From Burkholderiales bacterium (GTDB lineage Bacteria > Pseudomonadota > Gammaproteobacteria > Burkholderiales > SG8-39): a DNA stretch of 64,000 nucleotides. Positions 10,315-13,803 of the stretch are shown piece by piece; the first letter of the stretch is position 1, and each line of letters begins with the position of its first letter. The DNA lies in the NCBI GenBank assembly GCA_026416295.1, contig JAOAFL010000032.1:655-64654 (forward strand), given 5' to 3'. The notes under the pieces were generated by a model. That model was given only the letters and a program-made list of their open reading frames with translations, was not told the DNA's origin and made no database searches. The translations under genes and the position numbers were made by a program.

Positions 10315-13803
<3,489 letters not shown>

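What the first reader, a model, noticed from the sequence alone, without database searches (positions are those of the whole stretch)
13561..13587. FS0 cluster motif reads C-x3-D-x3-C (CCPNDTHNC): an Asp where Nar/Ebd enzymes have Cys
Residues 73-81 of the alpha subunit are C-C-P-N-D-T-H-N-C, which I verified codon by codon on the minus strand. The distal Cys lies in RCCQKG (residues 120/121). Canonical type II enzymes use H/C-x3-C-x3-C...C for the N-terminal [4Fe-4S]. As I recall, replacement of the middle Cys by Asp was noted as a hallmark of the Nitrospira/Kuenenia NxrA group and their Beggiatoa/Hydrogenobaculum relatives. Finding this in a heterotroph-like betaproteobacterial context would extend that lineage.
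Basis: partly seen in the sequence, partly recalled or inferred. Interest (0 to 1): 0.7.

Follow-up and report, generated by a model that had tools for sequence, protein, structure and literature searches.

The report
Asp-ligated iron-sulfur site, NXR-type enzyme
The Cys-x3-Asp-x3-Cys motif is real and marks the first iron-sulfur cluster of a periplasmic nitrite-oxidoreductase/nitrate-reductase-type molybdenum enzyme, but this aspartate is a known, structurally confirmed hallmark of a family already recorded in hundreds of genomes, so the finding is correct but ordinary.

Summary
Observation confirmed. Residues 73-81 of a 1162-aa, Tat-signalled molybdopterin alpha subunit (window 10315-13803, minus strand) read CCPNDTHNC at 13561-13587.

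Alignment to solved structures puts C73/D77/C81/C121 on the FS0 ligands C67/D71/C75/C115 of Kuenenia NxrA (PDB 7B04) and on H49/C53/C57/C92 of E. coli NarG. C74 and C120, the second members of the two Cys doublets, vary among homologues and are not the conserved ligand positions.

The Asp was noted in 2010 according to Chicano et al. 2021, whose crystal structure shows it. It is invariant in all 201 close homologues I checked. More distant type II relatives have Cys at that position.

The enzyme is only 38-39% identical to Kuenenia NxrA. It falls in the sister clade (Nitrotoga/Hydrogenobaculum type), not in the Nitrospira/anammox clade. At least 588 species-representative genomes carry a relative, so no lineage is extended.

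The host looks like an uncultured Burkholderiales-type anaerobic aromatic degrader. The operon (alpha, beta, gamma, NarJ-like chaperone) has a perfect FNR box about 100 nt upstream, and related loci are enriched for such boxes. I infer a low-oxygen-induced, cytochrome-c-linked periplasmic nitrate reductase. The direction of catalysis is untested.

Verdict: new member of a known kind, low interest.

The parts
13561..13587 (-). FS0 motif C73-C74-P-N76-D77-T-H-N-C81. C73, D77 and C81 are the predicted cluster ligands. N76 is the substrate-coordinating Asn.
   Evidence: sequence. (alignment to 7B04_B and NarG). (ligands in the crystal structure). (invariance).
13441..13446 (-). C120-C121 doublet. 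C121 (13441-13443) is the fourth FS0 ligand position. C120 is variable.
   Evidence: C121 aligns with Ks C115, C120 with Met. (C121 aligns with NarG C92, C120 with Gly)..
12961..12963 (-). D281, the predicted molybdenum-coordinating Asp, within Y-x4-D-x11-QT.
   Evidence: aligns with Ks D275; the Y..H.D-x11-QT pattern is in 201/201 homologues. (D275 coordinates Mo). (motif definition).
13759..13779 (-). Twin-arginine (Tat) export motif S-R-R-E-F-L-K, residues 9-15.
   Evidence: sequence. No transmembrane segment in alpha.
10315..13803 (-). Alpha subunit, 1162 aa: molybdopterin catalytic subunit of a periplasmic NXR/NAR-type type II DMSO-reductase-family enzyme.
9165..10292 (-). Beta subunit, 375 aa, multi-[Fe-S] electron-transfer subunit.
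   Evidence: Fer4_11. (7B04_A, E=1.5e-113)..
8308..9153 (-). Gamma subunit, 281 aa, Sec signal peptide, EB_dh haem b domain, no membrane anchor. M127 and K269 align with the haem ligands M155/K305 of Kuenenia NxrC.
   Evidence: (haem ligands).
7556..8305 (-). NarJ/TorD-type maturation chaperone (delta), 249 aa.
   Evidence: Same position in relatives.
13899..13912 (.). Perfect palindromic FNR/CRP-family box TTGATATGAATCAA, centred about 102 nt upstream of the alpha start codon.
   Evidence: 6 boxes in the window against 0.12 expected. (boxes upstream of alpha in 24/79 related loci against 1.9% of control segments).
14188..14496 (-). Small monohaem class I cytochrome c (102 aa, signal peptide, CIACH), same strand, upstream of the operon. 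Candidate redox partner (inferred).

Best explanation
The motif is the N-terminal binding site of the [4Fe-4S] cluster FS0. [quoted passage not shown]

FS0 is held by three cysteines (C73, C81, C121) and one aspartate (D77), as in the crystal structure of Kuenenia NXR. The carboxylate ligand, together with Cys in place of the His used by NarG and EbdA, is thought to tune the potential of the cluster. FS0 is the first relay between the Mo site (D281 as Mo ligand, N76 facing the substrate) and the four clusters of the beta subunit and the Met/Lys-ligated haem b of the gamma subunit.

The enzyme interconverts nitrate and nitrite. In this organism it most likely runs as a nitrate reductase induced at low oxygen through an FNR-type regulator and fed by c-type cytochrome.

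Shown: the sequence, the homology, the ligand correspondence, the conservation, the operon composition and the FNR box. Inferred: actual Asp ligation in this protein, its effect on potential, the substrate, the direction of catalysis and the electron donor.
For: Motif and frame.

Full-length match to NxrA 7B04_B at E=3e-260. Beta matches 7B04_A at 1.5e-113. Gamma matches 7B04_C at 2.8e-23 with M127/K269 on the haem ligands.

C73/N76/D77/C81/C121/D281 map onto Ks C67/N70/D71/C75/C115/D275. The paper identifies these as the FS0 ligands, the substrate Asn and the Mo ligand. NarG alignment gives H49/N52/C53/C57/C92, and the PcrA alignment gives the same register.

The ligand positions are invariant in 201 homologues, while C74 and C120 vary. 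The Asp/Cys switch coincides with a clade boundary: relatives at 39-52% identity have Asp (one has Glu), and outgroups at 30-33% have Cys.

The alpha-beta-gamma-delta order is conserved.

Low-oxygen regulation: a perfect FNR box about 100 nt upstream, and enrichment in related loci at 24/79 against 1.9% of controls. Two CRP/FNR-family regulators, hemN and a PAS sensor kinase with a LuxR-type response regulator sit beside the operon. Benzoyl-CoA reductase and phenylacetate genes of anaerobic metabolism lie around it.

The sister-clade literature contains a characterised periplasmic nitrate reductase (Hydrogenobacter) as well as the Nitrotoga NXR (PMC6050957).
Against: No biochemical data exist for this protein or for any member of its subclade at 70% identity or more.

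NXR/NAR enzymes are reversible, and the nearest organism with a known phenotype in the clade (Nitrotoga) oxidises nitrite.

In one close relative the operon sits beside cbb3 oxidase genes and a complete nap cluster. That argues the enzyme is not needed there as the only nitrate reductase.

The window holds no nir, nor or nos genes.

The FNR box is a consensus match only. The simple promoter scan found no sigma-70 promoter nearby.

The cytochrome c gene is not conserved next to the operon in relatives.
Confidence: 0.85

Rival explanations
1. The same enzyme works physiologically as a nitrite oxidoreductase. It oxidises nitrite to nitrate in the periplasm and passes electrons via cytochrome c to a high-affinity oxidase, either for energy or for nitrite detoxification at low oxygen, as in Nitrotoga.
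For: It belongs to the same sister clade as Nitrotoga NxrA. The N-terminal 123 aa are 55% identical to a Nitrotoga fragment against 43% for Kuenenia, and the motif type is the same in the published alignment. A cytochrome c gene lies upstream and a cytochrome bd oxidase gene is in the window. The relative L082 has the operon embedded in ccoNOQP/ccoGHIS genes with a separate nap cluster. FNR control would also fit micro-oxic expression.
Against: The host gene content is that of an anaerobic heterotroph. No carbon-fixation or NOB-typical genes appear in 64 kb. Kitzinger et al. regard most members of this clade as likely nitrate reductases, and one has been characterised as such.
Confidence: 0.2
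2. It is an ethylbenzene-dehydrogenase-like anaerobic hydroxylase for an aromatic or alkyl substrate, recruited to the surrounding aromatic-degradation gene clusters.
For: It has the same alpha-beta-gamma-delta architecture with an EB_dh haem b subunit. Its neighbours are a phenylacetate-type cluster and benzoyl-CoA reductase.
Against: The best NCBIfam EbdA score is 152 bits against a cut-off of 2000. The PDB match to EbdA is 1.9e-39 against 3e-260 for NxrA. It has Asn at the substrate position where EbdA has Ile and C/D instead of the H/C FS0 ligands. Orthologues at 73-88% identity sit in unrelated, non-aromatic contexts in Magnetococcales, Thiomargarita, Hyphomicrobium and others.
Confidence: 0.03
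3. It reduces another oxyanion (chlorate, perchlorate or selenate), like the soluble periplasmic Clr, Pcr and Ser enzymes.
For: It is a soluble periplasmic type II enzyme with a haem b gamma subunit and a nearby cytochrome c. The second-best solved structure is perchlorate reductase PcrA at 6e-58.
Against: It is far closer to NxrA, and its FS0 is of the C/D type whereas PcrA has H/C. No chlorite dismutase gene is seen in the window.
Confidence: 0.05

Closest known systems
Kuenenia stuttgartiensis nitrite oxidoreductase NXR-ABC (PDB 7B04; Chicano et al. 2021, PMC8387239)
   Same: All three subunits are homologous over their full length. FS0 has the same C-x3-D-x3-C...C ligand set. The substrate Asn, the Mo-ligand Asp within Y-x4-D-x11-QT, and the Met/Lys haem b in the gamma subunit are all shared. 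Alpha carries a Tat signal and the complex is a soluble heterotrimer.
   Different: Alpha is only 38-39% identical and lies in a different clade. Gamma is shorter (281 aa against 322). There is no evidence of the tubule-forming NXR-T partner. The host is a heterotrophic proteobacterium, not an anammox bacterium.
Nitrotoga NxrABCD and the Hydrogenobaculum/Hydrogenobacter periplasmic NAR (the 'sister clade' of Kitzinger et al. 2018, PMC6050957)
   Same: The FS0 segment is of the same type (F-L/M-C[10 protein letters not shown] ... S-H-R-W-[D/E]-P-R-x-C-x-K-G). Operon order is the same (nxrABC plus chaperone) and alpha and beta are of similar size: 1169/385 aa in Nitrotoga against 1162/375 here. 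The enzyme is periplasmic and lacks a membrane anchor in gamma.
   Different: Only the N-terminal 123 aa could be compared cleanly (55% identity). Full-length Nitrotoga genes were not retrievable. Nitrotoga NxrC is about 371 aa against 281 aa here. Nitrotoga has QM where this protein has QT after the Mo-ligand motif.
E. coli NarG, Aromatoleum EbdA and Azospira PcrA (canonical type II enzymes)
   Same: The domain architecture and register of the FS0 segment, the Asn before the second ligand (NarG, PcrA) and the Asp Mo ligand are shared.
   Different: They have His at the first ligand position and Cys at the second (H-x3-C-x3-C), where this protein has Cys and Asp. Per Chicano et al., Kuenenia NxrA is only about 20% identical to the NARs and EbdA. 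The PDB matches to this alpha subunit are also far weaker than the NxrA match: 6e-58 for PcrA, 1.9e-39 for EbdA and about 1e-37 for NarG, against 3e-260.

Membership tests
Type II DMSO reductase family (Mo-bisMGD alpha-beta-gamma enzymes) | Aspartate ligand to molybdenum in the catalytic subunit | tested here: met
   D281 aligns with Ks D275. The column is invariant in a 27-sequence alignment, and Y..H.D-x11-QT is present in 201/201 homologues.
Type II DMSO reductase family (Mo-bisMGD alpha-beta-gamma enzymes) | N-terminal four-ligand FS0 [4Fe-4S] site (x-x3-x-x3-C ... C) | tested here: met
   C73/D77/C81/C121 are in register with NarG H49/C53/C57/C92 and with Ks C67/D71/C75/C115.
Type II DMSO reductase family (Mo-bisMGD alpha-beta-gamma enzymes) | Fe-S beta subunit, EB_dh haem b gamma subunit and NarJ-like chaperone encoded together | tested here: met
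   All NCBIfam type II subfamily models hit but fall below their cut-offs.
Periplasmic NXR/NAR superclade (Nitrospira/anammox clade plus Nitrotoga/Hydrogenobaculum clade) | FS0 with Cys at the first and Asp at the second ligand position (3Cys/1Asp) | tested here: met
   Outgroup enzymes have Cys at the D77 column.
Periplasmic NXR/NAR superclade (Nitrospira/anammox clade plus Nitrotoga/Hydrogenobaculum clade) | Tat signal on alpha and Sec signal on gamma (periplasmic orientation) | tested here: met
   SRREFLK at residues 9-15. Gamma has an N-terminal hydrophobic signal segment at residues 4-25 and no other transmembrane segment.
Periplasmic NXR/NAR superclade (Nitrospira/anammox clade plus Nitrotoga/Hydrogenobaculum clade) | Nitrite-oxidising or nitrate-reducing activity | not testable with these tools
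   Needs enzyme assays.
   38-39% identity to Ks NxrA. The neighbour-joining tree puts the window with the other clade, while P0244/P0250/P0426 (58-60% to Ks) join Ks.
Nitrotoga/Hydrogenobaculum-type clade | Closer to Nitrotoga-type than to Kuenenia-type sequences | tested here: inconclusive
   Met for the N-terminal 123 aa: 55% against 43%. Motif type agrees. A frameshifted Nitrotoga-like locus gives tblastn E 8e-146 for the window against 9e-74 for Ks. No intact full-length Nitrotoga or Hydrogenobaculum sequence was available for a tree.
Ethylbenzene dehydrogenase-like hydroxylases | H-x3-C-x3-C FS0 and a hydrophobic residue (Ile) at the substrate Asn position | tested here: not met
   C/D ligands and Asn76. 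EbdA equivalog scores 152 bits against a cut-off of 2000.
Cytoplasmic membrane-bound NarGHI | No Tat signal, His49-type FS0, NarI membrane subunit | tested here: not met
   A Tat motif is present and Cys is at the His position. Gamma is EB_dh, not NarI. The narG equivalog scores 151 bits against a cut-off of 1084.

The most novel reading that the evidence does not exclude
The subclade at 70% identity or more, to which this operon belongs, is spread across Beta-, Gamma- and Alphaproteobacteria, Magnetococcales, Myxococcota, Methylomirabilota and Rokubacteria. It may be a self-contained, horizontally mobile, FNR-controlled, cytochrome-c/bc1-dependent periplasmic nitrate reductase that many heterotrophic and sulfur-oxidising denitrifiers use beside or instead of Nar and Nap. 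That respiratory module has not been characterised biochemically in Proteobacteria. A smaller oddity may be specific to it: the co-varying extra cysteines C74 and C120, each next to an FS0 ligand, could form a redox-active pair beside the cluster.
Probability: 0.45. Interest if true: 0.45.

Novelty: new member of a known kind. Interest (0 to 1): 0.22.

Why it matters
The aspartate itself adds nothing new. It is the published signature of periplasmic NXR/NAR enzymes.

What could matter is physiological. Enzymes of this type are routinely annotated 'nitrite oxidoreductase' or just 'molybdopterin-dependent oxidoreductase' in metagenomes and are sometimes read as evidence for nitrification. Here the operon sits in an anaerobic aromatic degrader behind an FNR box, and FNR boxes recur upstream of the proteobacterial orthologues. 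That argues many of these genes report low-oxygen nitrate respiration, not nitrite oxidation. If confirmed, gene-based nitrogen-cycle budgets would need adjusting, and a second cytochrome-c-linked periplasmic nitrate reductase would join Nap in Proteobacteria.

Tried and rejected
1. I first judged by eye from the phmmer output that the protein was about 50% identical to Kuenenia NxrA. BLASTP and MAFFT gave 38-39%, which moved it out of the Nitrospira/anammox clade.

2. Exact look-up of the window's own alpha protein found no contig on record.

3. The last homologue search, seeded with an OCR-derived Nitrotoga N-terminus, returned only short fragments. The Nitrotoga contig ends inside nxrA, and the Nitrosomonadales locus L088 is riddled with frameshifts. 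No clean full-length comparison with Nitrotoga was therefore possible.

4. The 50%-representative search plus cluster look-up gave no named Nitrospira, Kuenenia or Nitrotoga sequences. It was still useful for locating the Asp/Cys boundary.

5. Luecker et al. 2010 (PMC2922143) is not held. The priority of the Asp observation rests on the citation in Chicano et al..

6. Literature searches for this clade in Magnetococcales, Thioalkalivibrio and Beggiatoa found nothing specific.

7. The 354-aa 'cytochrome c' ORF at 14188-15252 is a high-GC artefact. Only the last 102 codons are a real gene.

8. The promoter/terminator scan found nothing between 13700 and 15700. The hairpin after the cytochrome c gene is seen by eye only.

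9. I did not run structure prediction. No coordinates would be returned to measure ligand geometry, and the sequence match to 7B04 is already decisive.

10. The EBDH-like hydroxylase and oxyanion-reductase readings were considered and rejected (see rival explanations).

Full report
**1. The observation**

The minus strand of window 10315-13803 carries a 1162-codon ORF. It begins at an ATG preceded by a GGAGAG ribosome-binding site. The only other early cysteines are C120 and C121 in RCCQKG. Residues 9-15 are S-R-R-E-F-L-K, a twin-arginine export motif.

**2. What the protein is**

phmmer against all PDB chains gives one outstanding hit. This is NxrA of the Kuenenia stuttgartiensis nitrite oxidoreductase (7B04_B), at E=3e-260 and aligned end to end. 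Perchlorate reductase PcrA (6e-58), ethylbenzene dehydrogenase EbdA (1.9e-39) and E. coli NarG (about 1e-37) follow far behind.

The next three genes on the same strand complete the operon:
- A 375-aa poly-ferredoxin subunit, whose best PDB hit is NxrB 7B04_A at 1.5e-113.
- A 281-aa EB_dh haem b subunit with a signal peptide and no membrane anchor, whose best hit is NxrC 7B04_C.
- A 249-aa NarJ-type chaperone at 7556-8305.

M127 and K269 of the gamma subunit align with the Met155/Lys305 haem ligands of Kuenenia NxrC. No NCBIfam equivalog reaches its cut-off. This explains why database homologues are named only 'molybdopterin-dependent oxidoreductase' or 'nitrate reductase alpha subunit'.

**3. 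The ligand assignment**

| Window residue | Kuenenia NxrA | E. coli NarG | Role |
|---|---|---|---|
| C73 | C67 | H49 | FS0 ligand |
| N76 | N70 | N52 | substrate Asn |
| D77 | D71 | C53 | FS0 ligand |
| C81 | C75 | C57 | FS0 ligand |
| C121 | C115 | C92 | FS0 ligand |
| D281 | D275 | not aligned here | Mo ligand |

Chicano et al. [quoted passage not shown] They add that NAR and EBDH have 3Cys/1His coordination, with the His at the position of Cys67 (PMC8387239). The low-scoring first-domain alignment to PcrA gives the same register as NarG.

So the Asp replaces the second-position Cys of canonical enzymes, and a Cys replaces their first-position His. The best-scoring NarG entry is 3IR5, whose sequence carries Cys at the His49 position.

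**4. Which of the doubled cysteines matter**

C73, D77, C81 and C121 never change in 81 related genomic loci. In the same set C74 is Ala in 40, and C120 is Ile, Ala or Leu in 21. Kuenenia has Ser and Met at these two positions.

In 201 homologues C74 occurs only where C120 is also Cys: 157 have C/C, 23 have A/C, 21 have A/non-C and none has C/non-C. These sequences are related, so this is not an independent statistical test. It is still an unexplained co-occurrence right beside the cluster.

**5. Where the Asp occurs**

Every full-length representative at 39-52% identity has C-x-P-N-D-T-H-x-C. These come from Gaiellaceae, SAR202/Chloroflexota, Tectimicrobiota and others. The one exception has Glu in that column. 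Representatives at 30-33% identity (Thermincola, Halorussus, Obscuribacterales, Ammonifex) have C-x-P-N-C-T-x-x-C. The Asp is therefore a clade marker of the periplasmic NXR/NAR branch.

**6. Which clade**

The window protein is 38-39% identical to Kuenenia NxrA. This is the level that Chicano et al. quote for Nitrotoga and Hydrogenobaculum, against about 60% for Nitrospira and Nitrospina.

In a neighbour-joining tree, Kuenenia groups with representatives that are 58-60% identical to it. The window groups with all 80 genomic relatives plus the Gaiellaceae representative in the sister clade.

The machine-read alignment in the supplement of Chicano et al. shows that Nitrotoga and Hydrogenobaculum have the same segment type as the window (…[10 protein letters not shown]…SHRWEPRICN…). 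A Nitrotoga N-terminal fragment is 55% identical to the window against 43% to Kuenenia. A frameshifted Nitrotoga-like locus is hit much more strongly by the window protein than by Kuenenia NxrA.

Kitzinger et al. 2018 describe this sister clade as holding the Nitrotoga NXR together with putative nitrate reductases and one characterised periplasmic nitrate reductase, that of Hydrogenobacter thermophilus (PMC6050957).

I could not obtain intact full-length Nitrotoga or Hydrogenobaculum sequences. Placement inside the 'Nitrotoga clade' is therefore well indicated but not proven. Placement outside the Nitrospira/anammox clade is shown.

**7. How common it is**

More than 2700 database proteins match at E<1e-20, and the best 120 are all at least 73% identical. 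At least 588 GTDB species representatives encode a relative. They include:
- Betaproteobacteria MAGs (82-83% identity);
- Gammaproteobacteria, including Thiomargarita and the cultured Thioalkalivibrio thiocyanoxidans and Thioalkalicoccus limnaeus;
- many Magnetococcales and Hyphomicrobium;
- a Polyangiaceae MAG, Methylomirabilota, Rokubacteria and Planctomycetota.

The Microflora Danica study already catalogued 665 Nitrospira-clade and 581 Nitrotoga-clade periplasmic NxrA/NarG sequences in 97,227 genomes (PMC12823411). A groundwater study noted NXR homologues in many non-nitrifier phyla (PMC9562985). The claim that this window 'extends the lineage' does not hold.

**8. The host and the neighbourhood**

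The window is 70.9% G+C. The operon's third-position G+C (0.88-0.93) matches that of its neighbours (median 0.91), so it is not a compositionally foreign insert.

The window also encodes:
- class I benzoyl-CoA reductase subunits, enoyl-CoA hydratases of the ring pathway and a 2-oxoacid:ferredoxin oxidoreductase;
- a cluster of thioesterase, a cytoplasmic 883-aa molybdoenzyme, a ferredoxin, a polytopic membrane protein and a phenylacetate-CoA ligase;
- PhaC, pta-ack, two RND pumps, a TctC receptor and cytochrome bd.

From memory, the molybdoenzyme cluster resembles the anaerobic phenylacetyl-CoA:acceptor oxidoreductase PadBCD system.

BcrB is 95% identical to a protein of a 'Burkholderiales bacterium' MAG. 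A heterotrophic, facultatively anaerobic betaproteobacterium is a fair description of the host.

**9. Regulation and likely direction**

A perfect palindromic FNR-type box, TTGATATGAATCAA, lies at 13899-13912, centred about 102 nt upstream of the alpha start codon. The window has six boxes with at most one mismatch against 0.12 expected. The others sit before hemN, the phenylacetate cluster, pta and a thioesterase-RND operon.

Two CRP/FNR-family regulators, hemN and a PAS sensor kinase with a LuxR-type response regulator flank the operon. In related loci, a box with at most one mismatch lies within 350 nt upstream of alpha in 24 of 79 cases, against 1.9% of random segments of the same loci. 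All 24 are loci whose alpha protein is at least 70% identical to the window's.

This points to low-oxygen induction. Together with the anaerobic catabolic setting it favours nitrate reduction. Electrons would presumably arrive from the quinol pool via cytochrome bc1 and a soluble cytochrome c, such as the 102-aa monohaem protein encoded at 14188-14496.

This step is inference, for three reasons. The enzymes are reversible. Nitrotoga uses its homologue for nitrite oxidation. One close relative has the operon between cbb3 oxidase genes with a complete nap cluster next door.

**10. Mobility**

The four-gene module is intact but sits in unrelated surroundings in each relative examined:
- between ABC-transporter and acyl-CoA genes;
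- amid cco and nap genes;
- between ribosomal-protein genes and rpoC;
- beside toxin-antitoxin genes;
- next to ccm genes.

Identity of 73-88% across bacterial classes and phyla suggests horizontal spread.

**11. Verdict**

The motif is a known and crystallographically confirmed signature.

The modestly interesting residue is the evidence that the proteobacterial members are FNR-regulated. They are probably nitrate reductases, which bears on how 'nxrA-like' genes are interpreted in metagenomes.

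Noticed in passing
window 15572-21390 (+): A divergently transcribed cluster encodes an FlK-type thioesterase, an 883-aa molybdopterin oxidoreductase, a 218-aa 4Fe-4S protein, a 270-aa polytopic membrane protein with no family hit, and a phenylacetate-CoA ligase. The molybdoenzyme has no Tat signal and an N-terminal CxxC...C motif. The ligase scores 614 bits on the PaaK model against a cut-off of 646. From memory, subunit sizes and context resemble the anaerobic phenylacetyl-CoA:acceptor oxidoreductase PadBCD system of Thauera and Aromatoleum.
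   Followed up: partly
window 4527-4540, 13899-13912, 14953-14966, 15523-15536, 24727-24740, 43954-43967: There are six FNR-type boxes (TTGAT-N4-ATCAA, at most 1 mismatch) against 0.12 expected by chance. Most lie just upstream of operon starts: hemN, the NXR-like operon, the phenylacetate cluster, pta-ack and a thioesterase-RND pump. The whole region looks like one low-oxygen regulon. The box at 4527 overlaps the TTG start I assigned to hemN, so the true start is probably further downstream.
   Followed up: partly
window 13582-13584 (C74) and 13444-13446 (C120): The two extra cysteines next to FS0 ligands co-occur. In 201 homologues C74 is found only where C120 is also Cys (C/C 157, A/C 23, A/non-C 21, C/non-C 0). 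This could be a disulfide-capable pair beside the cluster or just shared ancestry. No coordinates were available to measure the distance.
   Followed up: partly
window 30501-39841: This stretch holds class I (ATP-dependent) benzoyl-CoA reductase genes (two HGD-D and two BcrAD_BadFG subunits), two enoyl-CoA hydratase-family genes and a two-subunit 2-oxoacid:ferredoxin oxidoreductase. It is the Thauera-type anaerobic benzoyl-CoA pathway. BcrB is 95% identical to a Burkholderiales MAG protein.
   Followed up: partly
window 14188-15252 (-): The 354-aa ORF is an artefact of 71% G+C. Its first 250 residues are Arg/Pro/Ala-rich nonsense. Only the last 102 codons (14188-14496) encode a signal-peptide-bearing monohaem cytochrome c (CIACH). 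By eye, the gene is followed by a GC-rich hairpin (14153-14135) and TTTTT (14134-14130). The terminator scan did not call this hairpin.
   Followed up: yes
window 41416-43689 (-): A 757-aa protein fuses a pyridine-nucleotide-disulfide oxidoreductase domain to AIRS/AIRS_C domains (SelD-like selenide water dikinase architecture). It lies next to two universal stress proteins.
   Followed up: no
window 15572-15979 and 43990-44403 (+): Two paralogous FlK-type (fluoroacetyl-CoA thioesterase-like) hotdog thioesterases are each preceded by an FNR-type box. One heads the phenylacetate cluster and the other heads an RND efflux operon.
   Followed up: no
protein P0245 (metagenomic representative, 1104 aa, 39-40% identical to the window alpha): This protein reads C-A-D-P-E-G-H-G-C at the FS0 site. 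It has Glu in the Asp column and Pro in the substrate-Asn column, so it is a divergent member with a possibly different ligand and substrate.
   Followed up: no
L082 1-23489 (relative, alpha 86% identical): The NXR-like operon is inserted between ccoNOQP-ccoGH and ccoS/napDABC-type genes, so a cbb3 oxidase, Nap and the NXR-like enzyme are encoded side by side. This bears on whether the enzyme is redundant with Nap or works in the oxidative direction.
   Followed up: no
L087 and L088 (Nitrotoga-type contigs): The Nitrotoga MAG contig breaks inside nxrA and is flanked by several transposase fragments. The Nitrosomonadales contig carries a heavily frameshifted nxrA-like region. Both fit the reported duplication and possible mobility of Nitrotoga nxr.
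   Followed up: no
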